Assembly (NCBI GenBank): GCA_964362665.1
Contig: CAYIFB010000005.1
Location: 2,556-66,555 of the forward strand
Origin: an uncultured Gammaproteobacteria bacterium
GTDB taxonomy: Bacteria > Patescibacteriota > Microgenomatia > 2-02-FULL-39-11
DNA: 64,000 bases
Reading direction: 5' to 3'
Below, in pieces: positions 2,206-41,635 of the stretch. The position numbers and the translations under genes were made by a program. The notes under the pieces were generated by a model. That model worked only from the letters and a program-made list of their open reading frames with translations. It was not told the DNA's origin and did no database searches. Each line of letters begins with the position of its first letter. Positions within the stretch are counted from its first letter, which is position 1.

Positions 2206-2299
2206 GGGCGTACTCCAAAATAACGTTGACATTTTGGATACGCCACATAGGGCCGTAATCCTAAATAATCGTAAGGATTATTTAGGAACGAGCCCTAAG
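2206..2299 (+). repeat. 95-bp palindromic repeat, family B copy 1 (intergenic)
   Basis: Reverse complement of 41156-41249 with a single mismatch. Contains a 12-bp stem tcctaaataatc/gattatttagga and a second imperfect stem ggcgtatccaaaat/attttggagtacgcc. Confidence 0.75.
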
Positions 2300-2334
2300 A
2301 AGTCCCGCAGTTGGCGGGACTTCTTTTATTTTAA
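2299..2334 (+). terminator. rho-independent terminator (plus-strand orientation)
   Basis: Perfect 9-bp stem aagtcccgc-agtt-gcgggactt followed by cttttatttt. It overlaps the stop codon of the minus-strand gene ending at 2326. Confidence 0.5.
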
Positions 2335-4698
2335 CCACTTTAAAAACTTTATAGATTTAATTTTCTTTCTGAAGACTACTAGAAGTACCAGTCCGGCTAT
2401 CTCTAACCATAAAAGAATTACTTTGAGTGTATTCGGCTGATAAGTGAACTCTACTTCATGAACTCCAGGACCAGCCTGCAGGGCCAGATAGAAAGGAAAT
2501 ACGGCAAAGGTCGGCACTTTTTGTCCGTCAAGCGTCGCTTTCCAGTTGGGATGATAATTCATTTTTAAAAGGATAGTACACTGTTTGCAATTTTGAGGAA
2601 CTTCTACAGTCGCTTTATAAGACTGTTTCACGACGCTTTCTTTGAGGATTTTTCCGGAGACTGTTGCCTCCGGAAAAGTAAAAGGAAAATCGGCAAAGAT
2701 ATTGTTTTTTTTACCGTTTTCCGTGTAAGTTACTTCGTCCTGCATGGAGAGGGTTCTTTTCATGCCATCCGGAACTTGGGGATTTTTTTCAAGACTAATA
2801 AACGGGTATGACTTCCAAACCCGGGGATAGGATTTTTGCCAGAGATGGACGATATTGAGAAAGTTTGTTTTGTCAGATTTAACAAACATATCACTCGTAA
2901 CCACGTCAAACCAGCCGCTTGTTGGTACTTCATAAACTTTGAAAGGGCCGAAAGTCTTGGTGAGTTTTGCCTGCGGGGTAAATCCTTCGTCTTTGGTGGC
3001 AACGATAAAGTGAATGTTAAAAAGATCATAGTCAGCCTCAACCCTTTCGTCGAAATTCTGTTCGGTTTCAGATAAAGGCGACCAGGTTTCCGGCAGAAAT
3101 TGGCTCATATCAAAGCCGTTAACCCCAAGAAGCATATACATTTCCGTGGAGCCCAGCCTCATTTGTTTTCCCCAATTGCCGGGGCGACCTGCATAAATTC
3201 GGGCGTTAGGTTGGGATTTCAGGTAATTAATTAGATCCAGAAAATTATGATAATCATATTGATAAGCAATATTCGCTTCACCGATCCAGCGGTTGTTAAA
3301 GCTGGCATAATCTATTGTTTGTTTGACAAGGGTTACGCAGATCACTGAAACGAAAGTTAATACAAGGATATAATATATAATATTTTGATATAGAGATTTA
3401 GTTTTATCATCAAGAGACAATACTCTGGTAATTTCTTCTCCCTGACCTCTTATATATTTTTGTAATAAAAATTTTAATAAATTAATTATCCGCTCAAATG
3501 CCCATTCAATCATTTTTCTGAAAGAGCCAAAAATAGAGGAGTAGGCTACAGGCAGGAGAAACAGAGAGGTGATCTGAATACCTACAATAAATCTATGCAG
3601 GTGAAATTCAGACAATCCCGGAATAAGATTTATAAGTCCTCCCCAAGTCGTTCTGCCGAAGTACATAATAACCCACAGTAAAAACATCAAGGCAAAGATA
3701 AACAGTTTTTGGTCAAGAAGAATGGTGAAAAAACCAATACCGACAAGGTAGGTTGTTACTGCAGGTCTTTTCCAGTCAAAAATTTCACCCTGAAAAAATT
3801 GCCGCACCACTTCATACCAGCCGTATGAATCAAATTTCCAGATCGGATCCCAAAAAGATATCATGTGGTAATTGGTATATAAGAGAACTGGAACAATCCA
3901 GTATGACAGGATGAAGACAATGACAAGGTAAATTAAAACAAGTCTTTTCAGCCTTAAAAGAATAAGTTTCGGATTCAGATCCAAAAAGATAAAGATCCCA
4001 CCGGAAATCAGAGAAATCATGCCAATCCCAAGGTGTCCGCTGATTGTTAAAACCAGAAAAAGAATCGCCAGGAAAATAGGTAGCGGTTTGCTGTAATTTT
4101 TTAAAGATAAATATAGGAAAGATAAGCCAAGAGGCATGAAAAATATGGCATAAAGCTGGGAAGTTAGGCCATAACCCCGCCAGAGGAAACTGGGAGGATC
4201 AATGCCGTAATATCCGTCAGTTGAGAAGTTAGCGGCCGTGAATGCCGTGAGGGCGCAGGTGAAAGGGGAGAAACCAAGTATCCGCAGGGAGAGAAAAATC
4301 GGCAGTGGAAAGAGGATCAGGAGTAGGAATTTGGTCAGATTGTAATACTGGTAAAGCGTGAAATTGCTTTGAAAAAGGCTTGTAACAGGTTGGATTATAA
4401 GATGGTATGAAGACACAAGAACAATTTGCGGCAGATGTGTGTAGTAAAAGGGCAGAGAATACCCTTCTGCCCAGGCAGTAACCAGATGATCCATCAAGTT
4501 GGGAAGGCAGTTTAAAGACAGCGGGCATCCGTAATTTTCCCAAACCCAGTTAGTACGATAGACCAGAGAATACTGGAAGATATTATCGTTGGGGTCTGCC
4601 AGAATTTTCGTCTCCGGAAAATACAGCCAAAAGTTAAACCCGATGGTAAATATCAGTATCAGATAACCCAATACAGACGTAATTTTTTTCATATTCAC
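2326..4698 (-). CDS. YfhO-like polytopic membrane glycosyltransferase (GT-C fold)
   Basis: About 14 predicted TM helices in the N-terminal two thirds and a large C-terminal extracytoplasmic domain. The C-terminal 'NYHPNWKATLDGQKVPTF...HEVEFTYQP' resembles the YfhO/GT-C C-terminal 'NYdkGWKAyVDGkev...Hkvef.Y' signature. Shares a 4-nt overlap with the next gene. Confidence 0.6.
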   Translation of the reverse strand: MNMKKITSVLGYLILIFTIGFNFWLYFPETKILADPNDNIFQYSLVYRTNWVWENYGCPLSLNCLPNLMDHLVTAWAEGYSLPFYYTHLPQIVLVSSYHLIIQPVTSLFQSNFTLYQYYNLTKFLLLILFPLPIFLSLRILGFSPFTCALTAFTAANFSTDGYYGIDPPSFLWRGYGLTSQLYAIFFMPLGLSFLYLSLKNYSKPLPIFLAILFLVLTISGHLGIGMISLISGGIFIFLDLNPKLILLRLKRLVLIYLVIVFILSYWIVPVLLYTNYHMISFWDPIWKFDSYGWYEVVRQFFQGEIFDWKRPAVTTYLVGIGFFTILLDQKLFIFALMFLLWVIMYFGRTTWGGLINLIPGLSEFHLHRFIVGIQITSLFLLPVAYSSIFGSFRKMIEWAFERIINLLKFLLQKYIRGQGEEITRVLSLDDKTKSLYQNIIYYILVLTFVSVICVTLVKQTIDYASFNNRWIGEANIAYQYDYHNFLDLINYLKSQPNARIYAGRPGNWGKQMRLGSTEMYMLLGVNGFDMSQFLPETWSPLSETEQNFDERVEADYDLFNIHFIVATKDEGFTPQAKLTKTFGPFKVYEVPTSGWFDVVTSDMFVKSDKTNFLNIVHLWQKSYPRVWKSYPFISLEKNPQVPDGMKRTLSMQDEVTYTENGKKNNIFADFPFTFPEATVSGKILKESVVKQSYKATVEVPQNCKQCTILLKMNYHPNWKATLDGQKVPTFAVFPFYLALQAGPGVHEVEFTYQPNTLKVILLWLEIAGLVLLVVFRKKIKSIKFLKWLK

Positions 4699-6527
4699 GG
4701 ATAAAGTATAGGACTGAGCCAGTCGGCATGGTCGTTATTGTTTCCGTCACCTCCGTCATCCACAATGAGCGCCAAATTTTTAACTCCGCTGACATCAACT
4801 TCAGCGTGTTTGGGAAAATCAAATCTGCCCATTTTACCACTATCAAAAAGCTTTTTGCCGTCACCCAAAATTTGAAAAACCACTGTAGCCTGAGTGCCTG
4901 CCTCGTTATCAATGCCCATATCTGTAGAAAATCTTTTGAACTTTTTATTAATATCAAAGACCAGATTTGATTTGGCATGGGCCCCAAAACCCTTTCGATA
5001 ATAAAAGTAATTATTAGAGAGTCTATTCCAGGATTTCCAGCCGGAGAAGGAATTAACGCTTTTATTTACCTGAAGAATACTAAAATCCTGAGAGGCTATA
5101 ATAGGCTTAAAGGATGTTAAAGAAACTTTTTGACGGAGCAGGAGGGATGAATTAGTGAGAGTTAGGCCAATGGCAGTAAGTATAAAAGGGACTGTCAGAA
5201 TAAATGGGGAAATCTGTGAGAAGACAAAAGGCAATAAAGCAAAAAAAAGCAGGATATGAAGATAAGCACTGGCTATTGTAAGTTGCGGTGTAGTGATTTT
5301 TGAGAGAAGTCCCCAGCCATTTTGAGGATAATTATAAATCAAACCAAAATGAATATTAAAAAAGATTAGAATGCTGGCCAAAATATATAAAATCCAGAAA
5401 TAGTTGGCGCTTCTGAATAAATTTTTCAGATAGCTTTTTAAATTAATGAACCGTATCATGAATTTACCGTATTCCAGATTCAAAAAAGGATATAAAAACA
5501 ACATCAGGACGACCACAGGATAACTGTATCTTTCGTGGCTTTCAGTGGTAAAAAGGAAAAAAGCCAAGATGCCGATAATGAGAGACAGGAAAAAATTCCG
5601 GGCGTTAGTTTTTAAATACAACAAAAGACAGCTCAAGAAGTAAAAAGAGGAAAAGATGATTAGGCCAACTGTTTTAGCATTAGTCATTCCTAAAACCGTA
5701 ATTTTATCGATGACATTAAGTCCCTTCGCATTGGAGACAATCCACCAGAGATTATGGGCATTAAGAGAGAGCCAGGGAAAATAATCGCTGTTTAAGGTCA
5801 TCAAAAATAGGACCTGATTCAAATCGCCTGCTAAAACAAAAGGAAGACAGATCACGACAAAAGTTATTGCTGAAACAAACATAGATTTTATTAGAGTTTT
5901 TGAGCCAAAACTGCGATAAATGAAGATAAAGTAGATCGGCAGATAAATAATATTCTGGAGTTTCATGAGTGTGCCCGTAATAAAAATGAAGGTTGCCAGG
6001 TATGGTTTTCTATAAAAAAGAAGAATGATGGCAAGAAGTGAAAACATAATCCCGAAAGATTCTACCTGTCCCCATAACGCCGAGTCGATGATCACAACCG
6101 GGTTAAGGTAAAAAACGGCCGAGAGAATCAAGGGTAAATTAGGAGATAAGGGAAGAGTAACCCCAAGTTTTTTCAGGCGTTCTTTTTGCGAGAAAAAAAA
6201 ATAAATTAACCAGGCAATAAAAACATCGGCGGCAATTGCGATGGATTTGGAGACGAATAAAAAAGCAAAATTATTTTCACGCCAGAAAGAGTTGAAGTCA
6301 TGCGGATTTCCAAAAAATGAATATAGTTTACCCATAATCCACAATACATAAATAAATCCCGGCGGATAATTGATGTTTGTATTATGGGAAGTCCAAACGA
6401 TTCCATGGTCGATGGCCGCCAGTCCCCAGGATTTCCAGAACGAAACATCAGCCAGAAAACCTGTGTTGCCGATAAGAAGAAGTCTAATAACAAGTCCAAC
6501 TACGATCAGAATGGGAAAGGCAGACAT
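4695..6527 (-). CDS. polytopic membrane glycosyltransferase-like protein (GT-C/PMT-like) with a C-terminal NPCBM/NEW2-like carbohydrate-binding domain
   Basis: N-terminal multi-TM region with 'LLIGNTGFLADVSFWKSW' in the first loop. The C-terminus 'ATVVFQILGDGKKLFDSG...VDVSGVKNLALIVDDGGDGNNNDHADWLSP' matches the NPCBM-type 'vDGdgk...DHADWadA' pattern. Confidence 0.5.
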   Translation of the reverse strand: MSAFPILIVVGLVIRLLLIGNTGFLADVSFWKSWGLAAIDHGIVWTSHNTNINYPPGFIYVLWIMGKLYSFFGNPHDFNSFWRENNFAFLFVSKSIAIAADVFIAWLIYFFFSQKERLKKLGVTLPLSPNLPLILSAVFYLNPVVIIDSALWGQVESFGIMFSLLAIILLFYRKPYLATFIFITGTLMKLQNIIYLPIYFIFIYRSFGSKTLIKSMFVSAITFVVICLPFVLAGDLNQVLFLMTLNSDYFPWLSLNAHNLWWIVSNAKGLNVIDKITVLGMTNAKTVGLIIFSSFYFLSCLLLYLKTNARNFFLSLIIGILAFFLFTTESHERYSYPVVVLMLFLYPFLNLEYGKFMIRFINLKSYLKNLFRSANYFWILYILASILIFFNIHFGLIYNYPQNGWGLLSKITTPQLTIASAYLHILLFFALLPFVFSQISPFILTVPFILTAIGLTLTNSSLLLRQKVSLTSFKPIIASQDFSILQVNKSVNSFSGWKSWNRLSNNYFYYRKGFGAHAKSNLVFDINKKFKRFSTDMGIDNEAGTQATVVFQILGDGKKLFDSGKMGRFDFPKHAEVDVSGVKNLALIVDDGGDGNNNDHADWLSPILYP

Positions 6528-6613
6528 AAGTCTGGGGTCATTTTAACAAAAAAGTTTACTATTTGTAATATACCTTTTTAATTAATGAGGACAATATGGC
6601 GCTTATTGGATGC

Positions 6614-6859
6614 TTATATTTTACTGACTACTTTTCTCCGGTTTCTCTTGTTTTCCTCTTTGCGGAGAAGTGAGCTGGCATGAATTGCGTCAAGATGGTC
6701 ATTTCTAACTTTCATTTCTTTATCTATTAGCTTTTGACAAGCAGGATCAGGACAAATATTAGTTGTATAGGTCAGGAGAGACTTGCCAACTAGTTCTTTC
6801 CAGCTTTTGGCAACAATTCGCTCCTTACCGCAACGGATACAGGGATTTGACTGTGACAT
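6614..6859 (-). CDS. small zinc-finger protein (CxxC ... CPDPAC), hypothetical
   Basis: 81-aa ORF with paired cysteines and a basic C-terminus. Co-directional and adjacent to the RRM protein gene. Confidence 0.35.
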   Translation of the reverse strand: MSQSNPCIRCGKERIVAKSWKELVGKSLLTYTTNICPDPACQKLIDKEMKVRNDHLDAIHASSLLRKEENKRNRRKVVSKI

Positions 6860-6888
6860 AGTCTATTTATCCTCCCTAAATGTTAAGT

Positions 6889-7224
6889 TTAATATCGTCT
6901 AGCGCCACCGCGACTTGATCCACCACCGAATCCGCCTCTTCGTCCTGCTCCACTGCCCCGGCCATCAGTATAGGTGGGTTTTGGAAGGGCTTCTTTGACG
7001 ATGATTTTTCGGCCTTCGAGTTCATGGCCGTTTAACTTTTCAATAGCGTTTTTGGCATCTTCTTCGGTAGCCATTTCAACAAAGGCAAACCCTCGGCTGG
7101 AGCCTGAAAATTTATCCTTGATAATATTTACAGATTGGACTTGTCCGACCCCTGCAAAAAGCTGTCCAAGAGCATCATCTCCAACGGTGAAAGGAAGGCT
7201 TCCGACAAATAGATTTTTTACCAT
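6889..7224 (-). CDS. glycine-rich RNA-binding protein with a single RRM domain
   Basis: RNP-2 'LFVGSL' and RNP-1 'RGFAFVEM' motifs. Gly/Arg-rich tail 'GRGSGAGRRGGFGGGSSRGGARR'. Confidence 0.85.
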   Translation of the reverse strand: MVKNLFVGSLPFTVGDDALGQLFAGVGQVQSVNIIKDKFSGSSRGFAFVEMATEEDAKNAIEKLNGHELEGRKIIVKEALPKPTYTDGRGSGAGRRGGFGGGSSRGGARRY

Positions 7225-7418
7225 TATTAACTCCTTGAGATGCTTATATTCTAATAAAAAGCAATTTTATTAAACAAATTAACCTGCTTAAATGAGAAGT
7301 TGACTTAAAAAGCGGAAAAGATGGGTGTCTAAATCTGATTTAAACAGATTAATTTATTCAAATCTGTCTAAAAGAATAGTATCACGTAACCCTTAAATTA
7401 GCAAGGTCTTCTACGATG

Positions 7419-8096
7419 TTATTTATTGGGAGTCCAATCGACACTGTCAACAATTCTGTCAAAAATAGAGGGATCCAGATTTCCATTGGCCAAATGGATG
7501 ATGAGATTGTTATTGCCAGGAATCTCGAAAAAAACATCGACATTGGGGGTTTGGTCGACATTATTGATATAAACTGCCCGATAACCTTTGAGGTTATTTA
7601 TATTTTGAAAGGCGTCAATCTTATCAACTCCTTTCAAGCCGGAAAAGTACTTGTACCAGTTTTTCACATAATCAATAACCGGTTTTCCGGTAAGCAGGGG
7701 ATCACGGTCGGATATTTTTTCAATATTGAGGATTATATTTACTTTGGGATCGACATTTTCGAAACTGAAAGCGACGCTGTCTAATTTATCCTTGGGAAAA
7801 ACCACCAGTTTGAGAGATTCGGGATAGTTAAAAGAATACGGATAAATTATCCCTCGAAATTTAATCCATTTGTCATTCTCGGATGCAGTAAATAATTTTC
7901 GGGGTTTGAGAGTGAGTGTTGGTAAAATTGGTTTTACGGTCGAAGACGGACCAAGATAGGTGACTCCGCCGGGCAAAATAATGCTACTCGACTGGAGAAG
8001 GGAATACCGGTAAGTGATGTAAAGCGCTCCGATAGTAAGACATATGGTAAAGATGAAAAAAATTAACTTCTGCTGGTTTACCTTTTTAACTAACAT
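7419..8096 (-). CDS. hypothetical N-terminally anchored secreted protein
   Basis: Single N-terminal TM/signal-anchor ('LIFFIFTICLTIGALYI'). The rest is hydrophilic. No recognisable motif. Confidence 0.35.
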   Translation of the reverse strand: MLVKKVNQQKLIFFIFTICLTIGALYITYRYSLLQSSSIILPGGVTYLGPSSTVKPILPTLTLKPRKLFTASENDKWIKFRGIIYPYSFNYPESLKLVVFPKDKLDSVAFSFENVDPKVNIILNIEKISDRDPLLTGKPVIDYVKNWYKYFSGLKGVDKIDAFQNINNLKGYRAVYINNVDQTPNVDVFFEIPGNNNLIIHLANGNLDPSIFDRIVDSVDWTPNK

Positions 8097-8107
8097 ATGT
8101 TTATTCT

Positions 8108-11509: not shown

Positions 11510-11575
11510 CGAATTTTCAATAATTAAATAGAAATTAAGAATTAGAAATTAGATATTAATTTAATAATTACTATC

Positions 11576-11604
11576 TTACAATAATTTTTAAAATTTGCTA
11601 TGAT
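11576..11604 (+). promoter_or_regulatory. candidate sigma70-type promoter for the GT2 gene at 11617
   Basis: TTACAA, a 17-nt AT-rich spacer, then TATGAT, ending 12 nt before the ATG. It lies in a roughly 100-nt AT-rich divergent intergenic region. Confidence 0.35.
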
Positions 11605-11616
11605 CACGATCGAAAT

Positions 11617-13571: not shown

Positions 13572-13591
13572 ACGGCACACTGCAAATAATA

Positions 13592-15676: not shown

Positions 15677-15715
15677 GAGATTTATTTTACTTTATTCCAG
15701 GTCAAGAAAAAATAT

Positions 15716-16978
15716 ATGAATTTAATAATTTTCTTTGCTGCCGGGATTTTGTACCGTTTATGGTTAATTCATCTCGTTCCTCAGCCGTTTGTCTATGATC
15801 AGAACCAATATTTATCAGTTGCCTGGGGCATCCTGCAATACGGGTTGTATGCGGATTATTCAAGGCTGTATGGTTATGGACTCTTAATTGCGCCTTTCAT
15901 CAAAATCTTTGGTTTATCAAATCCATTTCCCTGGCAGTTGTTTCAGGCAATTCTTGACACCCTTAGCGCTTTTTTGGTTTATTATATCGGTAAGAAGATT
16001 TTTAAGACGGAAAGAGCAGCTTTTTGGGGATTTATACTTTATCTGTTTAATCCTTTTACTTCTGCCTACGTAGGAGTGATGCTGACAGAGATAGCTGCAA
16101 TATTTTTCATGGTACTGGTGTTTTTTATTTATTTACGTTTTTTAGAAACCAGAAAAATATCTCTGCTTTTGCTCCTCGGTTTCATACTTGGATATTTCGT
16201 CCAGGTGAGGCCAAGTTTTTTGTATTTTACGATTTTTTTTCTAATATGGCTTATATTTCTGATTTTTAAAATTATAAAACCGAATAAACATAAGGCTTTA
16301 CTTTGTATTATTTTACCCATAATTTATTTAATACCTTTTTCATACAATATTGCGGCAAATTATAAAACTTTTCATCAATTTGCAATGTTGTCTGTTGACA
16401 AGTTTTTCTTTCGGGATGTCTATGTCAGCTTAATAGTTGACAGGGTACCACGCACATCCAGCGATCCTTATTATTTTTGGTCGGGAGAAGCATTGTATGT
16501 TTGGGGTGTGTTTTCGACGCCAAAAACTGTAATCGAAAGGCAAAATATGGCAGATAAGTATTTTCAACTTGGAATGGCAATCATAAAGAAAGACCCCATA
16601 AAATTTATCGTTTCAAGGGCCAAAAAAATGCAATATGTCTGGGAGAAGCATTATCTCTTTCCATATAAAATGGAATCTACAAATCCCATTATTAATTTTC
16701 TCGTGTATTGGATTAACGTCTGCTTTTTAGTTTTGACTCTATTTGGACTCATTATGTTTTTCAGGAAAAGAAAAAATGAAAAATCTTGGGCGGAAAAGCA
16801 GTCGATATATATAGTTATTTTTATCTTGATGTATATTACATTTGCCCATATGTTTAGCACCGGTGAAGAAAGGTTTTCACTGCCGGCTTACACTTTTGTT
16901 TTTATGTTTGCGGGTTTTGGATTATATACATTGCAAAATCGGTGGTTGGGTAGATATAATATACTTCTTTTATTATAA
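15716..16978 (+). CDS. GT-C-like (PMT/ArnT-type) membrane glycosyltransferase
   Basis: N-terminal 'RLWLIHLVPQPFVYDQNQYLSVAWG' resembles the first-loop acidic motif of the PMT_2/ArnT family. Multi-TM throughout. Confidence 0.5.
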   Translation: MNLIIFFAAGILYRLWLIHLVPQPFVYDQNQYLSVAWGILQYGLYADYSRLYGYGLLIAPFIKIFGLSNPFPWQLFQAILDTLSAFLVYYIGKKIFKTERAAFWGFILYLFNPFTSAYVGVMLTEIAAIFFMVLVFFIYLRFLETRKISLLLLLGFILGYFVQVRPSFLYFTIFFLIWLIFLIFKIIKPNKHKALLCIILPIIYLIPFSYNIAANYKTFHQFAMLSVDKFFFRDVYVSLIVDRVPRTSSDPYYFWSGEALYVWGVFSTPKTVIERQNMADKYFQLGMAIIKKDPIKFIVSRAKKMQYVWEKHYLFPYKMESTNPIINFLVYWINVCFLVLTLFGLIMFFRKRKNEKSWAEKQSIYIVIFILMYITFAHMFSTGEERFSLPAYTFVFMFAGFGLYTLQNRWLGRYNILLLL

Positions 16979-17046
16979 TTTGGAATCAGCATATACTCTT
17001 CTAAACTGTCCCTCGCTATCGCTCGGGATCGAGTAAGAAGAGTATA
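16961..17046 (+). repeat. family C repeat (~86 bp) copy 1, overlapping the last codons of the upstream gene and the 5' leader of 17059
   Basis: atacttcttttattataatttggaatcagcatatactcttctaaactgtccctcgctatcgctcgggatcgagtaagaagagtata. Near-identical to 17727-17812 and to the reverse complement of 29346-29432. Has terminal inverted repeats atacttctt / aagaagagtat. Confidence 0.65.
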
Positions 17047-17058
17047 ATTAAAAATTTT

Positions 17059-17715: not shown

Positions 17716-17726
17716 ATATTCATGAT

Positions 17727-17812
17727 ATACTTCTTTAATTATAATTTGGAATCAGTATTTACTCTTCTAGACCGTCCCTCGTTATCACTCGGGATCTAGT
17801 AAGAAGGGTATA
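17727..17812 (+). repeat. family C repeat copy 2 (5' leader of 17814)
   Basis: atacttctttaattataatttggaatcagtatttactcttctagaccgtccctcgttatcactcgggatctagtaagaagggtata. Confidence 0.65.
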
Positions 17813-22165: not shown

Positions 22166-22240
22166 GGGCCTGCCGCTCGTCACCCTATTGCTGTGCCGGG
22201 TTAAACGTCACATCAACAGGGTACCTGACTCGCGTCACCC
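22166..22240 (+). repeat. family A GC-rich repeat, copy 1
   Basis: Starts gggcctgccgctcgtcaccc and ends cctgactcgcgtcaccc. Contains the gggttaaacg core shared with copy 2. Confidence 0.6.
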
Positions 22241-22256
22241 GCTTGCTGTATGACTT

Positions 22257-25973: not shown

Positions 25974-26106
25974 GAGTTTCGCGTTATTATATAGTTATTC
26001 CCAGAGGGTCCTGCCGCTCGTCACCCTGCTGTTGCGTCGGGTTAAACGCCGACAACAGCATGGCACCTGACTCGCGTCACCCACTCGATTTCTGTTAACG
26101 CGAGAC
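25974..26106 (+). repeat. family A repeat copy 2 with flanking terminal inverted repeats (MITE-like, fills the intergenic region)
   Basis: Core gggtcctgccgctcgtcaccc...cctgactcgcgtcaccc (26006-26082). Flanked by gagtttcgcgtta (25974-25986) and taacgcgagact (26095-26106), which are inverted repeats. Confidence 0.7.
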
Positions 26107-26113
26107 TTGTGAA

Positions 26114-27733: not shown

Positions 27734-27816
27734 CCGGCTCAATTGATTTATTTTCCTGCATTTATTAAGATACATAAGTTAAATATTCCCTTTACAAAAG
27801 TAAAACTATCTTTTAC

Positions 27817-29343: not shown

Positions 29344-29345
29344 AT

Positions 29346-29432
29346 ATATACCCTTCTTGCTCGATCCCGAGCTATAACGAGGGATAGTCTAGAAGGGTTT
29401 ATACTGATTCCAAATTGCAGTAAAAGAAGTAT
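29346..29432 (-). repeat. family C repeat copy 3 (inverted), overlapping the start codon of 29431
   Basis: Reverse complement reads atacttcttttactgcaatttggaatcagtataaacccttctagactatccctcgttatagctcgggatcgagcaagaagggtata. Confidence 0.65.
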
Positions 29433-31039: not shown

Positions 31040-31049
31040 ATAGAATAGA

Positions 31050-33090: not shown

Positions 33091-33096
33091 TAAAAA

Positions 33097-34104: not shown

Positions 34105-34122
34105 ACAAATGGGAATCTATTA

Positions 34123-34276
34123 GAAGTTTCGCGTTATTCAATTTCGGGTCCTGCCGTTCGCGTATCCCAAGATTCGTTTCTGAACGCTTGAGAAATAGAA
34201 TTAAAGCTAATAGAAACTCATCTTGGGAGCCTTCACTCGCGTCACCCGTTAATGATTAAGGAATACGCGAAACTCG
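34123..34276 (+). repeat. family A repeat copy 3 with terminal inverted repeats; its right TIR supplies the last codons of the minus-strand gene 34256-35626
   Basis: gaagtttcgcgtta (34123-34136) ... gggtcctgccgttcg ... cactcgcgtcaccc ... tacgcgaaactc (34265-34276). The internal segment differs from copies 1 and 2. Confidence 0.6.
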
Positions 34277-35626: not shown

Positions 35627-35647
35627 TCATTCTAACAATGATTTAAT

Positions 35648-36802
35648 ATGATTCCAAGTTTTGATATTAAAAGACAAAATAAAACATTAAACCGTGAATT
35701 AAACAGGTCTATTCAAGAAGTATTAGACCGGGGTATCTTTATTTTAGGAGAGAAGGTGGAAGAATTTGAAGACAATTTTGCCTCATATCTCGGGGTAAAA
35801 TATGCAGTCGGGGTAGGGAGTGGGACTGATGCCCTGTCTTTAGCTCTTATTGCAATTGGAATTAAACCGGGAGATGAAGTGATTATGCCGGTAAATGCTT
35901 ACCCCACGGCTTTTGCAGTTACCGCGATTGGTGCCCTCCCCGTCCTTATCGATATTGATCCAGCTACCTTTAACATTAATCCTGATCTCATTGAACAGGC
36001 AATCACCAAGAGAACTCGTGCCATTCTCCCAGTCCACCTCTACGGACTCCCTTGTGATATGAATTCCATCATGAGGATTGCCAAAAAGCACAATCTGAAA
36101 GTCATAGAAGACTGTGCACAGGCACATGGGGCCACGCTGAGCGTGGCTATACCCGCGCTGAGCGCGGGGGCAGAGATTCGTTCACTTTCAACTGGTACTG
36201 ATTTAAATTGGAAAAAAGTGGGCAGCATTGGCGACGCGGGGTGTTTTTCGTTTTATCCGACAAAAAACTTGGGATGTTTTGGTGACGGGGGAATGGTGGT
36301 GACGAATAATAAAGAAATTTACGATAAAGTAAAGCTGCTCAGGATGTATGGGGAAAAGACACGATATAAAAGCGTAATACTCGGGCGAAACAGCAGACTG
36401 GACGAATTGCAGGCGGCAATCTTGTTGGTTAAACTTAAATATTTGGATAAATGGAATAAAAGGAGAAGGGAAATAGCTGAGTTGTATTTATCTCATATAG
36501 CCGGCCCCGCCGAGTCTACTGCCGTAGACTCTTTCTTTCACGTTTATCACTTATTTGTTATCCGGACAAAGAAACGAGACCAATTAAAAAAGCATCTGGA
36601 GGAAAAAGGAATACAAACCGCGGTTCATTACCCAACCCCAGTTCATCTGCAGGAGTCTTTCCGGTTTTTAGGATACAAAAAAGGAGATTTTCCTGTGGCA
36701 GAAAAGTTGGCCGATGAGATTTTGTCCATACCCATGTTTCCTGAATTAACCGAGTCGGAACTTATGGCGGTAGTTTCAGGAATAAATTCTTTCTTCGTAT
36801 GA
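35648..36802 (+). CDS. DegT/DnrJ/EryC1-family PLP-dependent sugar aminotransferase, carrying a roughly 25-aa in-frame insertion
   Basis: 'GVGSGTDALSLAL', 'AQAHGA ... VGSIGDAGCFSFYPTKNLG' (PLP-lysine region). The insertion 'TLSVAIPALSAGAEIRSLSTGTDLNWKK' sits between HGA and VGS, where family members normally have about 5 residues. Confidence 0.8.
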   Translation: MIPSFDIKRQNKTLNRELNRSIQEVLDRGIFILGEKVEEFEDNFASYLGVKYAVGVGSGTDALSLALIAIGIKPGDEVIMPVNAYPTAFAVTAIGALPVLIDIDPATFNINPDLIEQAITKRTRAILPVHLYGLPCDMNSIMRIAKKHNLKVIEDCAQAHGATLSVAIPALSAGAEIRSLSTGTDLNWKKVGSIGDAGCFSFYPTKNLGCFGDGGMVVTNNKEIYDKVKLLRMYGEKTRYKSVILGRNSRLDELQAAILLVKLKYLDKWNKRRREIAELYLSHIAGPAESTAVDSFFHVYHLFVIRTKKRDQLKKHLEEKGIQTAVHYPTPVHLQESFRFLGYKKGDFPVAEKLADEILSIPMFPELTESELMAVVSGINSFFV

Positions 36803-37389
36803 TCAGAGAGTTGCAAGCTGAAGACATAAAACAAGTGGTACAAATACATCTAAGTCAACTGCCGGGTTTTTTATCCCTGCTTGGTAAAGAGCTTTTAACC
36901 AGGTATTATCAGGTAAGTTTAGATACCCCGGAGATGTTTACTCTAGTCGAAAAACAGGATGAACAAATACATGGGTTTACTACCGGAGCGGTGAAGCTGA
37001 AGGGTTTGACAATCAGAATATTATTTAAGGATGTATTAGGTTTCGTTCGCATATTTATGAACATTTTATTTACTCACCCAATTTTACTTTTAGGATCCGT
37101 AAAAACTCTGACTTACCCGGGCTTTAGTCAAGACGTCCCAGAGTTATTAACTATAGCGGTCCAAAAGAATTTTCAAAATAGAGGAATCGGTAAAAAATTA
37201 TTTCAGGCAATCAAAAATAAATTTCAGAAAAGGGGTATCAAATATTTTCAGGTCAGCATGTATGCCAAATTATCTGCAGGCAAATTTTATGAAAAAATGG
37301 GATGCCGTTTAACAAAAAATTTTTCTTTTCAGGGGCAAATCATGAGTTATTATATGTGTAAGGTAAATGAGCGAGGATTAAATAATTAA
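36799..37389 (+). CDS. GNAT-family N-acetyltransferase
   Basis: 'VQKNFQNRGIGKKLFQAI' (motif A Q/RxxGxG/A). Confidence 0.7.
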   Translation: MIRELQAEDIKQVVQIHLSQLPGFLSLLGKELLTRYYQVSLDTPEMFTLVEKQDEQIHGFTTGAVKLKGLTIRILFKDVLGFVRIFMNILFTHPILLLGSVKTLTYPGFSQDVPELLTIAVQKNFQNRGIGKKLFQAIKNKFQKRGIKYFQVSMYAKLSAGKFYEKMGCRLTKNFSFQGQIMSYYMCKVNERGLNN

Positions 37390-37428
37390 CACGCTCATCC
37401 TGAGCGATCGTAGAGAGTCGAAGGATTA

Positions 37429-39171
37429 ATGATTAAAAAAATAAGCACCCATAAATTAACTCTTACTTTATACACAGTTCTTCTGATAATTTTAGCCTAC
37501 CTTCTGAATTGGCATTTTAGGCTGGCACTGACAAGATATTTTGACGTTGATGAATTTGCTCATTTGCACTGGGGTTACAATCTTTGGTCGGGAAAGTATC
37601 CATTCAGAGATTTTTTCTATATATTCCCCCCGTTTTTTTTATATACCATAGCCGCGATTATACAATTTTTCGGCCGAAGCGTGGCTTCACTTATTATGGC
37701 CAGAGTGGTGATTTTTATGGCTTTTTGCGCAATCGCTTTGATGACGTTTTTCATAGCCCGTAAATTAAGCAATACTTTGACAGCCCTCATTTCTGTCATT
37801 ATTTTAAGCATACTTCCGATTCCCGGGGATAAAATGCTGGAAATCCGGCCGGATAATATTGCTTTGTTTCTTTCTCTCTCAGCATTTTATGTCTTTATTC
37901 TGGCTCATGAAAAAAAGTCCCGGATCATGTTTTTTCTGTCCGGCTTATTTTTCAGTGTAAGTCTTGGTTTTGTTCCAAAGACAATATTCTTTCTCATTCC
38001 TCCGGTGGTAATTTTGATTTATGATTTTTTAACACTATCAGGAAACCATAATTTTAACGATTTGAAGCACTATTTTCTGCCATTTTTTACAGGGATAATC
38101 ATACCGGCAATTGCGGTTATTTTGCTTTTTATTTATTATCAGAAACCCATCTTAGCCATTCAGAGCATCACGAGTATTTCAGCTGCAATTACTACCTTAC
38201 TTGGGGTTAAATTTTATATGAGACCGGATATTTTTTTATATCCGAATGACACCTATTATGGATTAAACGGATATAGTTCCGGTTATCTCCTTAATCTTCT
38301 CTTATATTTTTCAGCCAGCATCTTTGCCGTTTTTTTTACACTGTCATCTTTGAGCCACAAAACCCATGAGAAATGCGTGAGAGAGTTTATGACAGGGGCA
38401 ACTTTTTTTCTTAGCCTTTATGCGTTTGTCTATATCTTTCCTTTAAAACATGCCCAATATCTTATTCCGCTTACTCCTTTTATCTCCATCTTTTTCGCAA
38501 TGTTTTTTACCAAACTTATACAGCATAGATATTTGATCAGATATAAGTCTTGGATAATTATGGCAGTCTTAATCTATTTTTGTCTGATTGCCAAAGACAT
38601 GTTTATACCTAAATCGAGATGGACGAATCAGGCGACTTTAGATGAAGTAGAGAATGTCCTGACTGCAATTCCCAAAAATGAAAAGATTTTCGATCTAACC
38701 GGCGAGAGCGTATTTTTTCCGGATGGTTATTACTTCTGTTGTCTGCCTTACGGACAGTATGATGAAGGAATTCCTTTTCAGCTGCCAAGTTTGGAAAAAT
38801 CCTTAAGGGACAATCAAGTGCATTTTGTACACGTTGGGGAAGAAAACAGGCTGGGCGTAATACCTATTTATCAGCAAAAAATTGTTGAGACCTATTATGT
38901 GAAGGATAAATTGGGGATGATGATAGCCGGAAAAAAACTGGATTTTGAACAGGGAAACATCAGCCACAACTTTGAGATAATCGCCGGCGGAAACTATACA
39001 ATTTTTTGGAATGGCGCTCTGAAAGTTAATGGAACGGATACAGTGGTGAGATTGGATGAAAAGGAAGTAAATTCCGAAAATGTATATTTATCATCAGGTA
39101 AGCACAAAATTACAGCGTCTCAAAAGGGTGAATTGATTTTAAAATATATATTTTTCCGCCAAGGCCTCTAA
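37429..39171 (+). CDS. GT-C-like (PMT/ArnT-type) membrane glycosyltransferase with a C-terminal extracytoplasmic domain
   Basis: 'RYFDVDEFAHLHWG' DE motif in the first loop. 11 or more TM helices, then a roughly 200-aa soluble C-terminal domain. Confidence 0.55.
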   Translation: MIKKISTHKLTLTLYTVLLIILAYLLNWHFRLALTRYFDVDEFAHLHWGYNLWSGKYPFRDFFYIFPPFFLYTIAAIIQFFGRSVASLIMARVVIFMAFCAIALMTFFIARKLSNTLTALISVIILSILPIPGDKMLEIRPDNIALFLSLSAFYVFILAHEKKSRIMFFLSGLFFSVSLGFVPKTIFFLIPPVVILIYDFLTLSGNHNFNDLKHYFLPFFTGIIIPAIAVILLFIYYQKPILAIQSITSISAAITTLLGVKFYMRPDIFLYPNDTYYGLNGYSSGYLLNLLLYFSASIFAVFFTLSSLSHKTHEKCVREFMTGATFFLSLYAFVYIFPLKHAQYLIPLTPFISIFFAMFFTKLIQHRYLIRYKSWIIMAVLIYFCLIAKDMFIPKSRWTNQATLDEVENVLTAIPKNEKIFDLTGESVFFPDGYYFCCLPYGQYDEGIPFQLPSLEKSLRDNQVHFVHVGEENRLGVIPIYQQKIVETYYVKDKLGMMIAGKKLDFEQGNISHNFEIIAGGNYTIFWNGALKVNGTDTVVRLDEKEVNSENVYLSSGKHKITASQKGELILKYIFFRQGL

Positions 39172-39837
39172 AATATATTTAATTCCTTCAATCAGGATAT
39201 TGAATTTCGACCTGCGGGTTGTACCGGTATACCGGACGGGGACAGAGGTAATTTTCAGATGTCTATTCATGCTCCATATTGCCAGCTGTGTCTGGAAAAA
39301 AATACTTTGGGCGTTACACGAGGCGAGTAATGGTAAAATTTTAGCCCGCTTCATAAAGATTGTTCCCTGGGTGTCTGAAATAGTGAGCCCAAAAAATATT
39401 TTTGTAAGGTATGAGTGAAGGTAAGTTGCAGTTTTACGGAATAAACCGATTTGATAATGGGATTTTGAGTGTGTTTTTGAGCCGTAGATAAGATCAAATT
39501 CAGAGGAAAGTGCGAGCATTTGTTTCAAATCTTCAAAGCGGAAGGGATTATCAAGCCCGTTGAGATAAACATACGGAAATTTGGCTTTTTGAATCCCTTT
39601 TTTTAAAGCTGTACCGATATTGGTGGAATTTAGATAAGTAATTTGGGAGAATTTTCTGCACAACTTTTGGCAAAGTAAAAGAGTATTATCAGAACTTCCA
39701 TTTTCGCAAAGGATAATTTCAAAACTCCTGATATTATTTTCACGAGACAAATAATCGAGAAATTGCAGAATGGCTTTTTCCAGCAGTGACTCTTCATTTT
39801 TTACAGGTATGACAAGAGACAAATCAATTTTTCTCAT
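39139..39837 (-). CDS. GT2 family glycosyltransferase (DPM1-like)
   Basis: 'LSLVIPVKNEE', 'ILCENGSSDNT', 'IGTALKKG'. The start overlaps the end of the upstream GT-C gene by 14 nt. Confidence 0.7.
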   Translation of the reverse strand: MRKIDLSLVIPVKNEESLLEKAILQFLDYLSRENNIRSFEIILCENGSSDNTLLLCQKLCRKFSQITYLNSTNIGTALKKGIQKAKFPYVYLNGLDNPFRFEDLKQMLALSSEFDLIYGSKTHSKSHYQIGLFRKTATYLHSYLTKIFFGLTISDTQGTIFMKRAKILPLLASCNAQSIFFQTQLAIWSMNRHLKITSVPVRYTGTTRRSKFNILIEGIKYILEALAEKYIF

Positions 39838-41635
39838 AAATGAAAGTGGTGGGCGAGCTGTAAACTTGCTTTAATTTCCATTTAGTTATCAGTTCAGGTT
39901 TTGGCATATTTGTATCACGACTGTACAAAACATAGGACACGTTGTATTTTTTAAAAATTGCCGGTGCATCGGTATCATTTTTGGGTGAGAAAACCAGATA
40001 GGCATCCTCCTTTTTTTTGGTAGAAGCATAGGTATTTGCGGGATGACCATAGACAACTTTGTCATGGGTAAAAGCCGGAATCAGATTGCCTATAAAGCCT
40101 CCGGCAAGAACAACTGACTTATCAGGGGAGTTTTTGTCGAGCCACTTGAAAGCCTTCATGATGTCGTTGGGAACGTAAATATTATAAAAGTTTTTGGTAA
40201 ACTGCAAAGGTTCATTGGTCAGGGAAAAATAAAAGGGAACAAGAGAATACAGGAGTATGGCGACTAAAATTAAAGTGGAAATTATTTTCTGATGTTTGGT
40301 AAAAATTGTTTCCAGATACATGGCTCCAAATCCTGCTAAAATACCGATGGGAATATAGGTGGCAGTTTCCAGAAAATAAACATCACCCAACTGGGGCAGA
40401 AAAAATCTGAATAAGGGAATTCCCAGAATGGGAAAAATAGCCCATCCCAAGAGTATTAAGGAAAGAAAAGTTAATTTCTTGAACATCACTTTCAGTCCGA
40501 TTACCATAAGTATAAAAAATGGACCAAGTGATAAAAGATACTCCCATAATTTGAAAGAAAAAGTGAATTTTACGGCTACTTTATTGTATCCCGACCAGGG
40601 AAAGCCGGAGCGGGAAATGTAAAAAATATATACAAGAGACAATCCGGCTAGCGCGACGTAGACTGCGATGAGCATTAACTTATTTAAGAATAGCGGGTCC
40701 TGTCTCAATATTCGCGGGTCCTGCCGCAAGTTTCTCTCCCGCCAGTACTCGCCTCCGATTGTCGGTTGCGTGCTGTCGGGATCCCTTCTTCTTGCGTCAC
40801 CCGCTCTGATAAAATTTATTATCTGATTAATTAGAACTATCAAAACTGCCGTACCCAGTCCGCCTAAGAGGCTAAGCATGGTGGCAAAATACACAAAACC
40901 CGCCAAAAACCCCAACAAACCTGCCAAGAGACAATAACGGAGTAAATTTTTTTCGAGAGCAATAACAAGAAAATAAACAGACCAAACAGCCAGAATCGTA
41001 CTCAAAAGATGATGGGGAATATAGGTAATTCTCATGATGGGATCAAGTCTGGTCCAGAAAGAGAGAAACTGTTGAAACTCATATTGTCCGTTATTAAACT
41101 TTAAAAACCAGAAGCTATTATTGATTAGAAGAAATAAACAAGTCCAGACGAAATACTTAGGGCTCGTTCCTGAATAATCCTTACGATTATTTAGGATTAC
41201 GGCCCTATGTGGCGTATCCAAAATGTCAACGTTATTTTGGAGTACGCCCTTTTTACTGCCAAAGATTTTATGGGCCAGAAAAAAAGAAGACAAAATCAGG
41301 ACGAACCCGAGAATAATTCTTGAGAAAAAGTAAACGTTGACAAGGGACAGATGAAACCATTTCGCCAGGTGTCCTGTGAACGCGTAGAAAGTATGGACAA
41401 AGGCAGGGGTAAAGCTTTCAGGGGTCATGTAGGTTGTCAAAAGCCAGTGTCCGTCAAACCCCTGGCGCATCAGGGAAAGGTAATAAAAATAATCATCAGG
41501 ATGGTTATGCACCAAAGGAAATACGGTTCCGGCAGGGGTATGTTTCAACCGGGTAAGGTCGGGAATGATGGAAAGTAAAACAAAAGAAGCAGCTAGCAGG
41601 GCCAAAAGAAAGACTGGATTTTTTACTCTTTTCAT
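39824..41635 (-). CDS. GT-C-like membrane glycosyltransferase, paralog family member 3, containing two in-frame repeat-element insertions
   Basis: Family motifs 'HNHPDDYFYYLSLMRQG', 'RITYIPHHLL' and C-terminal 'GNLIPAFTHDKVVYGH'. Contains the family A repeat (40716-40802, translated RAGDARRRDPDSTQPTIGGEYWRERNLRQDP) and the family B repeat (41156-41249, translated DTPHRAVILNNRKDYSGTSPK). Confidence 0.6.
   Translation of the reverse strand: MKRVKNPVFLLALLAASFVLLSIIPDLTRLKHTPAGTVFPLVHNHPDDYFYYLSLMRQGFDGHWLLTTYMTPESFTPAFVHTFYAFTGHLAKWFHLSLVNVYFFSRIILGFVLILSSFFLAHKIFGSKKGVLQNNVDILDTPHRAVILNNRKDYSGTSPKYFVWTCLFLLINNSFWFLKFNNGQYEFQQFLSFWTRLDPIMRITYIPHHLLSTILAVWSVYFLVIALEKNLLRYCLLAGLLGFLAGFVYFATMLSLLGGLGTAVLIVLINQIINFIRAGDARRRDPDSTQPTIGGEYWRERNLRQDPRILRQDPLFLNKLMLIAVYVALAGLSLVYIFYISRSGFPWSGYNKVAVKFTFSFKLWEYLLSLGPFFILMVIGLKVMFKKLTFLSLILLGWAIFPILGIPLFRFFLPQLGDVYFLETATYIPIGILAGFGAMYLETIFTKHQKIISTLILVAILLYSLVPFYFSLTNEPLQFTKNFYNIYVPNDIMKAFKWLDKNSPDKSVVLAGGFIGNLIPAFTHDKVVYGHPANTYASTKKKEDAYLVFSPKNDTDAPAIFKKYNVSYVLYSRDTNMPKPELITKWKLKQVYSSPTTFIYEKN
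40716..40802 (-). repeat. family A repeat copy 4, inserted in-frame inside CDS 39824-41635; a partial duplicate lies at 40693-40706
   Basis: gggtcctgccgcaagtttctctcccgccagtactcgcctccgattgtcggttgcgtgctgtcgggatcccttcttcttgcgtcaccc. About 90% identical to 50148-50234. Confidence 0.65.
41156..41249 (-). repeat. family B 95-bp palindromic repeat copy 2, inserted in-frame inside CDS 39824-41635
   Basis: Reverse complement of 2206-2299 with one mismatch. Confidence 0.75.

What the first reader, a model, noticed from the sequence alone, without database searches (positions are those of the whole stretch)
2206..41249. Near-identical 95-bp palindromic element present once intergenically and once in-frame inside a GT-C gene, 39 kb apart and inverted
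2206-2299 equals the reverse complement of 41156-41249 with a single mismatch. The intergenic copy sits between a zinc-ribbon gene and a terminator. The second copy is translated as DTPHRAVILNNRKDYSGTSPK inside gene 39824-41635, which also hosts a family A repeat. The element contains two hairpins. Such high identity suggests very recent mobilisation, or a template for recombination or inversion between the two loci.
Basis: seen in the sequence. Interest (0 to 1): 0.6.

Follow-up and report, generated by a model that had tools for sequence, protein, structure and literature searches.

The report
Small mobile hairpin element, translated in-frame
The two near-identical 96-bp sequences are copies of a small mobile DNA element found in groundwater Gottesmanbacteria (CPR bacteria); one copy landed inside a membrane glycosyltransferase-like gene in the only reading frame that stays open, so it is read through as an extra 31-residue protein loop, much like the palindromic elements known from Rickettsia.

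Summary
Window 2204-2299 (+) equals the reverse complement of 41156-41251 with 1 mismatch in 96 nt. It is not an assembly artefact: five contigs from other assemblies carry the same junctions. It is a mobile element. Both copies have an empty-site counterpart in a related genome, and each shows the same 93-bp gain flanked by an AAG direct repeat. The same genome has a third, 90%-identical copy just outside the window. Sixteen more family members (79-95% identity, plus one distant) lie at unrelated sites in other metagenome contigs. The element is two tandem, related hairpins kept by compensatory substitutions, not one palindrome. Only one of its six frames is open, and the GT-C-fold host gene uses that frame. 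A second, independent in-frame insertion in the same frame sits in the RsmI methyltransferase of another Gottesmanbacteria genome. In both proteins the insert maps to a low-confidence loop. No transposase was found, so the mobilising enzyme is unresolved: a DDE transposase making a 3-bp duplication, or an HUH/IS200-IS605-like enzyme. No inversion junction was seen. It is a new, lineage-specific member of a known kind (MITE, Rickettsia-palindromic-element-like).

The parts
2204..2299 (+). Copy B1 of the element. AAG (2204-2206), 90-nt core (2207-2296), AAG (2297-2299). Hairpin 1 is 2207-2244, the linker CAC(A)T is 2245-2247, and hairpin 2 is 2248-2297.
   Evidence: Empty site in L030: AAACTTT-AAG-AAGTCCCC, against AAACTTT-AAG[GGCG...CCCT-AAG]AAGTCCCG in the window.
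41156..41251 (-). Copy B2, inside the GT-C-fold gene, translated in the element's only open frame as a 31-residue insert.
   Evidence: Empty site in the orthologue L002/L001: GTAAA-AAG-TATTTC, against GTAAA-AAG[GGCG...CCCT-AAG]TATTTC.
39824..41635 (-). Host gene, 603 aa, a multi-pass membrane protein with a GT-C-like fold. The B insert is at residues 129-159 and the family A insert at about 278-308, each directly after a predicted transmembrane segment.
40712..40805 (+). Family A repeat (a different element family), also read in frame in the same host gene. It is absent from the distant homologues P0003 and P0004. The orthologue P0002 carries a different interior between the same termini.
1884..2177 (+). 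Treble-clef zinc-ribbon gene. B1 sits in its 3' untranslated region, in sense orientation.
2297..2335 (+). Intrinsic-terminator-like hairpin plus T-run directly after B1. Its stem includes the element's terminal AAG.
2326..4692 (-). Convergent 788-aa membrane protein gene that bounds the B1 intergenic region.

Best explanation
The two sequences are copies of a roughly 90-nt non-autonomous mobile element (MITE-like) that circulates in Candidatus Gottesmanbacteria and related groundwater bacteria. The element is two tandem, homologous stem-loops. Insertion adds 93 bp (102 bp in a long-loop subfamily) at a (T/A)AG site and leaves that trinucleotide on both sides. It encodes no protein, so a transposase supplied elsewhere in the genome must move it (inferred). 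The simplest reading is a transposase that makes a 3-bp target-site duplication. The conserved end hairpins keep an HUH, single-strand (IS200/IS605-type) mechanism open. Most copies sit between genes. A copy inside a gene survives only if its length is a multiple of three, it lies in the one orientation and frame without stop codons, and it falls in a permissive loop. That is the case for B2 in the GT-C-fold membrane protein and, independently, for a copy in RsmI of another Gottesmanbacteria genome. In both, the element is translated as an extra, probably disordered surface loop of about 31 residues. B1 and B2 come from a comparatively recent transposition within this genome.
For: Shown: (1) Two independent empty/filled site pairs with the identical 93-bp gain and AAG on both sides. 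(2) A third copy in the same genome, 86/96 identical to B1 and flanked TAG...TAG. (3) Sixteen further full-length copies plus one distant member in other metagenome contigs, with unrelated flanks next to ordinary housekeeping genes such as RuvB, a DegT aminotransferase, PMT_2, an AI-2E transporter and a Na/Ca exchanger. (4) Left flank trinucleotide equals the right terminal trinucleotide in 14 of 16 copies, against a chance rate of about 0.02 per copy. (5) Hairpins conserved with compensatory changes: 93% of cells paired, 8 pairs changed on both sides, 0 of 500 shuffles reach the observed score, slid controls 31-44% paired. Hairpin 1, which my search pattern did not constrain, has 4 of its 11 pairs changed on both sides. 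(6) Only 1 of 6 frames is open, and it is the frame used in both host proteins. (7) Homologues lack the insert: GT-C host, and RsmI, where 1 of 120 homologues carries it. (8) The inserts map to low-confidence loops between confident secondary-structure elements. The RsmI model has mean pLDDT 83 with residues 71-91 below 50. In the GT-C host, residues 129-156 are below 50, directly after a transmembrane segment. (9) The same junctions appear in independent assemblies. (10) Three contigs end inside a copy, as expected for repeats. Inferred: mobilisation in trans, the type of transposase, and that the host proteins remain functional.
Against: No autonomous parent element or transposase was found in the window ORFs scanned or between the paired copies in L013. 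My collection scans could only detect elements carrying a whole hairpin, so a parent that shares only terminal half-sites would have been missed. The terminal inverted repeat is weak (about 14-15 of 18-20 positions) and may only reflect that the two hairpins are related. Copy number per genome looks low: 3 in about 66 kb here, and a single exact-pattern hit in each Rifle MAG-derived contig set. Compensatory maintenance of each hairpin is not required by classical DDE MITE biology and is not explained by it. Translation of the insert and activity of the host proteins are not demonstrated. The only close variant, L003, is the same strain over the first 553 codons, so no purifying-selection test was possible.
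Confidence: 0.85

Rival explanations
1. Mechanism variant A, which I favour for the mobilisation step: a DDE-type transposase acts in trans, binds the imperfect terminal inverted repeats (5'-GGCGCACTCCAAAATAA / 5'-AGGGCTCGTTCCTAAATAA) and makes a staggered cut at (T/A)AG, giving a 3-bp (possibly 4-bp, TWAG/YTAR-like) target-site duplication. This is how classical MITEs work.
For: Flanking 3-nt direct repeats occur in 14 of 16 copies, with variable sequence (TAG x10, AAG x4, TTG x1), and a single copy is present at both empty sites. L009 has AAG flanks but the internal sequence typical of TAG-flanked copies, so flank identity can be independent of the element's interior. Nine of 16 left tetranucleotides fit YTAR, the IS5-type target (that consensus is from my own knowledge). 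B1, B2 and B3 lie in mixed orientations in a region of uniformly positive GC skew, which is unlike strand-biased single-strand transposition.
Against: Each end forms its own hairpin, which is kept by compensatory substitutions. A double-strand-binding DDE transposase does not need that. The TIR is weak. The internal base T54 is associated with AAG flanks (3/3 against 1/13; Fisher p = 0.007, or 0.029 if B1 and B2 are merged), which a purely target-determined duplication does not predict. No parent IS is known.
Confidence: 0.45
2. Mechanism variant B: an ends-only derivative (PATE) of an IS200/IS605-like or REP/RAYT-like element, moved as single-stranded DNA by an HUH tyrosine transposase. The enzyme would recognise the two end hairpins and insert 3' of a short target that matches the element's own 3' end. 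The flanking repeat is then target plus element terminus, not a duplication.
For: The element has two end hairpins, homologous to each other and maintained by compensatory changes. There is no strong TIR. The target trinucleotide is tightly restricted. The last 3-4 nt of the element (T-x-A-G) pair with the linker C-A-x'-A at the 5' foot of hairpin 2, with a central A.A mismatch. In L020 the flanks are TTG, the perfect complement of CAA. T54 associates with AAG. [quoted passage not shown]
Against: There is no spacer between the left junction and the foot of hairpin 1, so there is no room for a left guide sequence as in IS608. L009 breaks the linker/flank complementarity. Orientations are mixed on one replichore. 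No Y1 transposase or RAYT was found in the window. The covariation rests on very few independent events.
Confidence: 0.28
3. The sequence is primarily a functional structured RNA or cis-regulatory motif (terminator, mRNA stabiliser or sRNA) that was duplicated, not a mobile element.
For: The fold is strong (z about -8) with compensatory changes. Many copies lie just after stop codons and in sense to the upstream gene, about 8 of 11 intergenic copies. B1 lies in a 3' UTR just before a terminator.
Against: It occurs inside two unrelated coding sequences and in antisense orientation at other sites, for example B3. Clean presence/absence polymorphism with flanking repeats is seen at two sites. There is no Rfam match at or near gathering score. 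Folding is equally good on both strands. A secondary RNA-level effect of individual copies is not excluded.
Confidence: 0.06
4. The inverted pair marks a 39-kb invertible segment or recombination substrate, or is an assembly artefact (collapsed or chimeric repeat).
For: Two 99%-identical inverted repeats of 96 bp could in principle support homologous recombination.
Against: L004 spans B2 and L032 spans B1, each with kilobases on both sides. L003, L031 and L033 also carry the parental junctions. L032 differs from the window at about 0.1% of positions, so it is an independent assembly. No recombinase or invertase lies in the window ORFs scanned. The T/C difference between B1 and B2 is stable across assemblies.
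Confidence: 0.03

Closest known systems
Rickettsia palindromic elements (RPEs; Ogata et al. 2000, as summarised in PMC10969869)
   Same: Both are short (about 100-150 bp) hairpin-forming dispersed repeats found in intergenic DNA and also inserted in frame in unrelated housekeeping genes. Both encode a conserved peptide that is tolerated because it lies at the protein surface. No cognate transposase is known.
   Different: The host lineage is unrelated (CPR/Gottesmanbacteria, free-living groundwater populations, against obligate intracellular alpha-proteobacteria). This element is about 93 bp against about 150 bp. In-frame copies are rare here: 2 of about 20 known copies, against nearly half in some RPE families. 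Clear flanking 3-nt direct repeats and empty sites are seen here. Sequence similarity to RPEs was not tested.
Bacterial MITEs (Correia/NEMIS, RUP, ERIC, BOX, QMITE and others; review PMC10969869)
   Same: Small, non-coding, multi-copy, AT-rich elements with stable stem-loop transcripts, flanking direct repeats, mostly intergenic location and occasional in-frame fusion with host ORFs.
   Different: Classical MITEs fold as one long hairpin formed by the two terminal inverted repeats. Here each end is a separate hairpin, the TIR is weak, and no parent IS has been identified.
IS200/IS605-derived PATEs and REP/BIME elements mobilised by Y1 HUH transposases (PMC7290912)
   Same: A hairpin at each end, with the two hairpins related in sequence. 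A strong short target preference. A terminal tetranucleotide that can pair with bases at the 5' foot of a hairpin. A (T/A)AG directly 5' of each hairpin foot recalls the GTAG-plus-hairpin REP unit (from my own knowledge).
   Different: There is no room for a left-end guide, the left flank equals the right terminus, there is no strand or orientation bias, intragenic copies exist, copy number is low, and no TnpA or RAYT has been found.

Membership tests
MITE (miniature inverted-repeat transposable element) | Small (under about 300 bp) and without coding capacity for a transposase | tested here: met
   The core is 90-99 nt. The only open frame is a 32-codon read-through.
MITE (miniature inverted-repeat transposable element) | Multiple dispersed copies at non-homologous sites, with presence/absence polymorphism | tested here: met
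   There are 3 copies in this genome and at least 16 elsewhere, with two empty sites.
MITE (miniature inverted-repeat transposable element) | Flanking direct repeats (target-site duplication) | tested here: met
   A 3-nt repeat flanks 14 of 16 copies, and a single copy is present at both empty sites. It cannot be distinguished from target plus element terminus.
MITE (miniature inverted-repeat transposable element) | Terminal inverted repeats matching a parent IS | tested here: inconclusive
   The TIR is imperfect, about 14-15 of 18-20 positions by inspection of the alignment. No parent IS was found. The scans used could not detect half-site-only parents.
Rickettsia palindromic elements | In-frame insertion in unrelated protein-coding genes, encoding a conserved peptide at permissive surface positions | tested here: met
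   A GT-C-fold protein and RsmI carry the same peptide in the same frame, in low-confidence loops.
Rickettsia palindromic elements | Sequence homology to one of the RPE families, and occurrence in Rickettsiales | not tested
The host is Gottesmanbacteria. I claim analogy only, not membership.
IS200/IS605-derived PATE | A hairpin at each end and no TIR | tested here: met
   There are two end hairpins with compensatory changes, and the TIR is weak.
IS200/IS605-derived PATE | No target-site duplication; insertion 3' of a specific tetra- or pentanucleotide | tested here: inconclusive
   The target (T/A)AG is specific, but the same trinucleotide is found on both sides. That fits either a TSD or a target plus the element's own end.
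IS200/IS605-derived PATE | Guide sequence at the 5' foot of each hairpin, complementary to the cleavage or target site | tested here: inconclusive
   The linker CA(A/T)A pairs with T(T/A)AG at the right end, and T54 associates with AAG (p = 0.007). L009 is an exception, and the left hairpin has no room for a guide.
IS200/IS605-derived PATE | A cognate Y1 HUH transposase in the genome, and strand-biased insertion | tested here: not met
   The window has no transposase, although it covers only about 64 kb of the genome. B1 is in + orientation and B2 and B3 in - orientation, in a region of uniform GC skew.
REP/BIME (RAYT-mobilised) | Strictly extragenic, high copy number, GTAG tetranucleotide 5' of a GC-rich palindrome, RAYT gene present | tested here: not met
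   Two intragenic copies exist, copy number is low, the motif is (T/A)AG rather than GTAG, and no RAYT was seen.
   There is no Pfam or PDB sequence hit. The AF2 model (pTM 0.62, low pLDDT) hits only GT-C enzymes at the top of the list: STT3, DPY19, PglB and AftA, E 4e-7 to 1e-3. The catalytic residues were not examined.

The most novel reading that the evidence does not exclude
The family would be an HUH-mobilised, hairpin-ended element whose own linker sequence directs it to (T/A)AG sites. On this reading, translated copies of this and sibling repeat families (family A in the same gene; the other recurrent inserts in the RsmI loop of other Patescibacteria) are a general, so far undescribed source of new surface loops in the small, fast-evolving proteomes of CPR bacteria.
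Probability: 0.15. Interest if true: 0.65.

Novelty: new member of a known kind. Interest (0 to 1): 0.42.

Why it matters
It shows that small CPR genomes (Gottesmanbacteria), usually thought poor in mobile DNA, carry several families of miniature hairpin elements. It also shows that these can be absorbed into essential or envelope proteins as extra loops, which is the phenomenon that made Rickettsia palindromic elements notable, now in an unrelated and uncultivated lineage. In practice, such elements break metagenome assemblies: three contigs here end inside a copy. They also inflate apparent protein divergence and can be mistaken for lineage-specific protein inserts. The two-hairpin architecture with compensatory evolution and a tightly specified 3-nt target makes this a tractable case for identifying the mobilising enzyme once complete genomes are available.

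Tried and rejected
(1) The genome-contig scan with the hairpin-1 pattern TACTCCAAAATN{7,11}ATTTTGGATAC gave only 3 chance hits. In hindsight the pattern was specific to the B1/B2 variant (GTACTCC), while most family members have GCACTCC. A chimeric B+A peptide query then found nothing, not even the host protein, so that search was wasted. (3) The exhaustive HMMER scan with the 32-aa peptide gave one real hit, a 44-aa mini-ORF (P0007, 67% identity), and one spurious repetitive protein (P0006). Clustering at 50% identity probably hides insert-bearing proteins behind insert-free representatives. (4) Rfam found nothing at gathering score and nothing near it in a permissive scan, and there are no tRNA or tmRNA genes. 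(5) Viral contigs, plasmid records and phage records gave no match. (6) I first thought the flank trinucleotide was strictly subfamily-specific and complementary to linker position 54. The full table shows L009 as an exception, so I downgraded this to a statistical association. (7) I first took L003 as evidence that B2 predates strain divergence. All differences lie in the last 50 codons, so it is the same strain with a divergent 3' end. (8) The two copies in L013 are not a composite transposon: nothing transposase-like lies between them, and the repeat is a 181-bp segmental duplication that includes the flanks. (9) The element at the end of L030 is not a third in-frame insertion. It lies 17 nt upstream of a shorter gene's start. 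(10) Literature searches for MITEs in CPR/Patescibacteria found nothing relevant.
Full report
**1. The observation**

Window 2204-2299 (+) and 41156-41251 (-) are reverse complements over 96 nt with a single mismatch. Sensitive BLAST and a family profile find no further copy in the window.

- Copy B1 lies 27 nt after the stop codon of a treble-clef zinc-ribbon gene (1884-2177). It sits directly in front of a terminator-like hairpin with T-run (2297-2325).
- Copy B2 lies inside the 603-aa ORF 39824-41635 (-). It is translated as KGVLQNNVDILDTPHRAVILNNRKDYSGTSP.
- The same gene contains the unrelated 'family A' repeat at 40712-40805.

One correction is needed. The element is two tandem stem-loops (2207-2244 and 2248-2297) joined by a 3-nt linker, not one palindrome. 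It folds equally well on both strands, with z about -7.4 to -8.6.

**2. Not an artefact**

The window comes from a Hainich (Germany) groundwater population. Independent assemblies of other replicates and runs carry the same junctions.

- L004 (a 21-kb contig) and L003 carry B2 in the gene.
- L031, L032 and L033 carry B1 between the same flanks.
- L032 is 99.9%, not 100%, identical to the window over 8.7 kb, so it is a separate assembly.

None of these contigs shows an inversion junction.

**3. It is an insertion**

Both copies have an empty-site counterpart.

- B2: the 74%-identical orthologous gene of Candidatus Gottesmanbacteria GCA_001779235.1 (L002; also L001) reads GTAAA-AAG-TATTTC. The window reads GTAAA-AAG[GGCG...GAGCCCT-AAG]TATTTC. 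At protein level the 65%, 44% and 39% homologues all lack the block.
- B1: contig L030 encodes an identical zinc-ribbon protein and has 96% and 85% identical flanks. It reads AAACTTT-AAG-AAGTCCCC(terminator). The window reads AAACTTT-AAG[GGCG...GAGCCCT-AAG]AAGTCCCG.

So the two events are identical: a gain of 93 bp with AAG on both sides.

**4. It is a family**

A metagenome scan with a hairpin-2 pattern returned 22 loci.

- Sixteen hold full-length copies at 79-95% identity. L017 is a distant member with a different hairpin 1. Six are chance AT-rich palindromes.
- A profile search of all held DNA found a third copy, B3, in the same genome about 1.5 kb beyond the left edge of the window. It is at L032:10150-10243, is 86/96 identical to B1 and is flanked TAG...TAG.
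- Flanks are unrelated between copies, and the neighbouring genes are ordinary housekeeping genes.
- One host contig (L028) belongs to a Rifle (Colorado) Gottesmanbacteria genome. The family therefore spans at least two continents and several genomes of 37-51% GC.
- Three contigs end inside a copy, as expected for repeats.
- The element is absent from the plasmid, phage and viral collections and from Rfam.

**5. Anatomy**

The consensus is (T/A)AG | GGCGCAC-TCCAAAAT-loop-ATTTTGGA-TGCGCC | ACA | (A/T)AGGGCCGTAATCCTAAATAAT-loop-ATTATTTAGGAACGAGCCCT(T/A) | AG.

- The 5' arms of the two hairpins are homologous. That also creates a weak terminal inverted repeat, about 14-15 of 18-20 positions.
- On the 15-sequence alignment, 93% of cells are paired, against 31-44% when partners are slid. 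Eight pairs change on both sides, and no shuffle out of 500 reaches the observed covariation.
- The loop-proximal core of hairpin 2 was fixed by my search pattern, so its invariance carries no information.
- Hairpin 1 was not constrained by the pattern. Four of its 11 pairs show changes on both sides (for example C-G, A-U and U-A at one position).
- A subfamily has a hairpin-1 loop 9 nt longer, giving a net insertion of 102 bp.

**6. Flanks**

The trinucleotide to the left of the core equals the last three bases on the right in 14 of 16 copies: TAG x10, AAG x4, TTG x1. The chance rate is about 0.02 per copy. One copy of that trinucleotide pre-exists at both empty sites. This is what a 3-bp target-site duplication with a (T/A)AG preference looks like.

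The picture is not entirely simple.

- The first base of the right-hand trinucleotide pairs with linker position 54.
- The three copies with T at position 54 (B1, B2, L028) are all AAG-flanked, against 1 of 13 copies with A54 (Fisher p = 0.007, or 0.029 if B1 and B2 are counted once).
- L020, flanked by TTG, is perfectly complementary to the linker CAA.
- L009 has AAG flanks with A54 and breaks the rule.

The data therefore hint at, but do not establish, element-directed target choice of the IS200/IS605 type. PMC7290912 summarises that family's features.

**7. Why the in-gene copy survives**

- The insertion is 31 codons long.
- Only one of the six frames of the element is free of stop codons, and that is the frame used.
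- In the host protein the insert begins directly after a predicted transmembrane segment, as does the family A insert.
- Both inserts are the lowest-confidence stretches between helices in an otherwise low-confidence AlphaFold model. That model's best structural matches are exclusively GT-C glycosyltransferases.

The same thing has happened independently. The annotated RsmI (16S rRNA C1402 2'-O-methyltransferase) of a Rifle Gottesmanbacteria genome (L028 = P0008) carries KGALQNNVDILDTPHRTVILNNRKDYLGTSP in the same frame. It is the only one of 120 homologues to do so. In a confident model (mean pLDDT 83), the insert is a disordered loop between a helix and the strand that starts the conserved LISYYDE motif.

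Translation and retained activity are inferred, not shown. The only close variant of the window's host gene is identical over the first 553 codons, so I could not test for purifying selection.

**8. Mechanism and classification**

The top-level conclusion is well supported (confidence 0.85). This is a non-autonomous mobile hairpin element that is occasionally fixed as an in-frame protein insert.

The mobilising enzyme is unknown. The window encodes no transposase; it is a cell-envelope glycan biosynthesis region.

- I favour a transposase that generates a 3-bp duplication (about 0.45). This is the simplest account of the flanks, of L009 and of the mixed orientations.
- The self-contained, compensated end hairpins and the T54/AAG association keep an HUH single-strand mechanism at about 0.28.

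The closest known phenomenon is the Rickettsia palindromic elements, as reviewed in PMC10969869. Membership in that family is not claimed. I found no description of such elements in CPR bacteria in the searchable literature.

**9.

Recent mobilisation is supported in a relative sense. B1 and B2 are 99% identical, against 90% for B3 and at most 95% for any copy elsewhere. B1 is also missing from a close relative. The inversion or recombination idea has no support at contig level and needs reads to exclude.

**10. Verdict**

This is a real and correctly observed feature. It is a new, lineage-specific member of a known kind, and of moderate interest.

Noticed in passing
window 40712-40805, 50144-50237, 22166-22252, 26007-26094: 'Family A' is a distinct GC-rich (about 53-57% GC in a 40% GC window) structured repeat of about 90 nt with conserved termini (GGnCCTGCCGC ... 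GCGTCACCCGC) and two different interiors. A1 is read in frame in the same GT-C-fold gene. The 65% orthologue P0002 has a longer, different interior between the same termini at the same site. In the window a second partial terminus follows A1 (LRQDP-RI-LRQDP), which suggests interior replacement or nested insertion.
   Followed up: partly
window 16956-17046, 17722-17812 (+), 29344-29432 (-): 'Family C' is a third AT-rich structured repeat of about 90 nt (85-89% identity between copies), wedged tightly between genes of the glycan cluster. The stop codon of ORF 15716-16978 lies inside copy C1.
   Followed up: partly
alignment A5 (RsmI homologues P0008-P0127), loop before the KLISYYDE motif: The loop that hosts the B element in P0008 carries other recurrent foreign-looking inserts in other Patescibacteria RsmI proteins: SSSEESSTS(R/G)E...SSRLRSNN in six proteins and GE(E/A)R(N/S)DDSRIKFGFWTSQNDELIKSP in two. 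These may be further translated repeat families using the same permissive site.
   Followed up: no
window 35930-36132 vs 44360-44562, and 36208-36267 vs 44686-44745: Two DegT/DnrJ/EryC1-type aminotransferase genes (35648-36802 and 44087-45289) share a 203-nt stretch at 94% identity and a 60-nt stretch at 85%. This suggests paralogues with a gene-converted or recently duplicated segment.
   Followed up: no
window 52585-53149, inside ORF 52055-55966 (-), 1303 aa: A long run of degenerate 6-, 12- and 18-nt periodic GT-rich repeats lies inside a very large ORF, next to a second giant ORF (55999-60291, 1430 aa). These are probably repetitive cell-surface proteins.
   Followed up: no
L013:503-683 and 2032-2212: A 181-bp segment comprising a B-family copy plus about 48 and 37 nt of its flanks is duplicated in direct orientation 1.5 kb apart (98% identity). 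Only short ORFs lie between the copies. This is a segmental duplication rather than two transpositions.
   Followed up: partly
L003:34-1845 vs window 39824-41635: All 32 differing codons between the two versions of the host gene lie in the last 50 codons, and the first 553 are identical. This points to a recombined 3' end or a chimeric short contig.
   Followed up: no
L030:3873-3899 (contig end): In the relative that lacks B1, another B-family copy sits 17 nt upstream of the start codon of a shorter version of the 788-aa membrane protein gene. That gene's first roughly 190 codons, as seen in the window, are missing or replaced there.
   Followed up: partly
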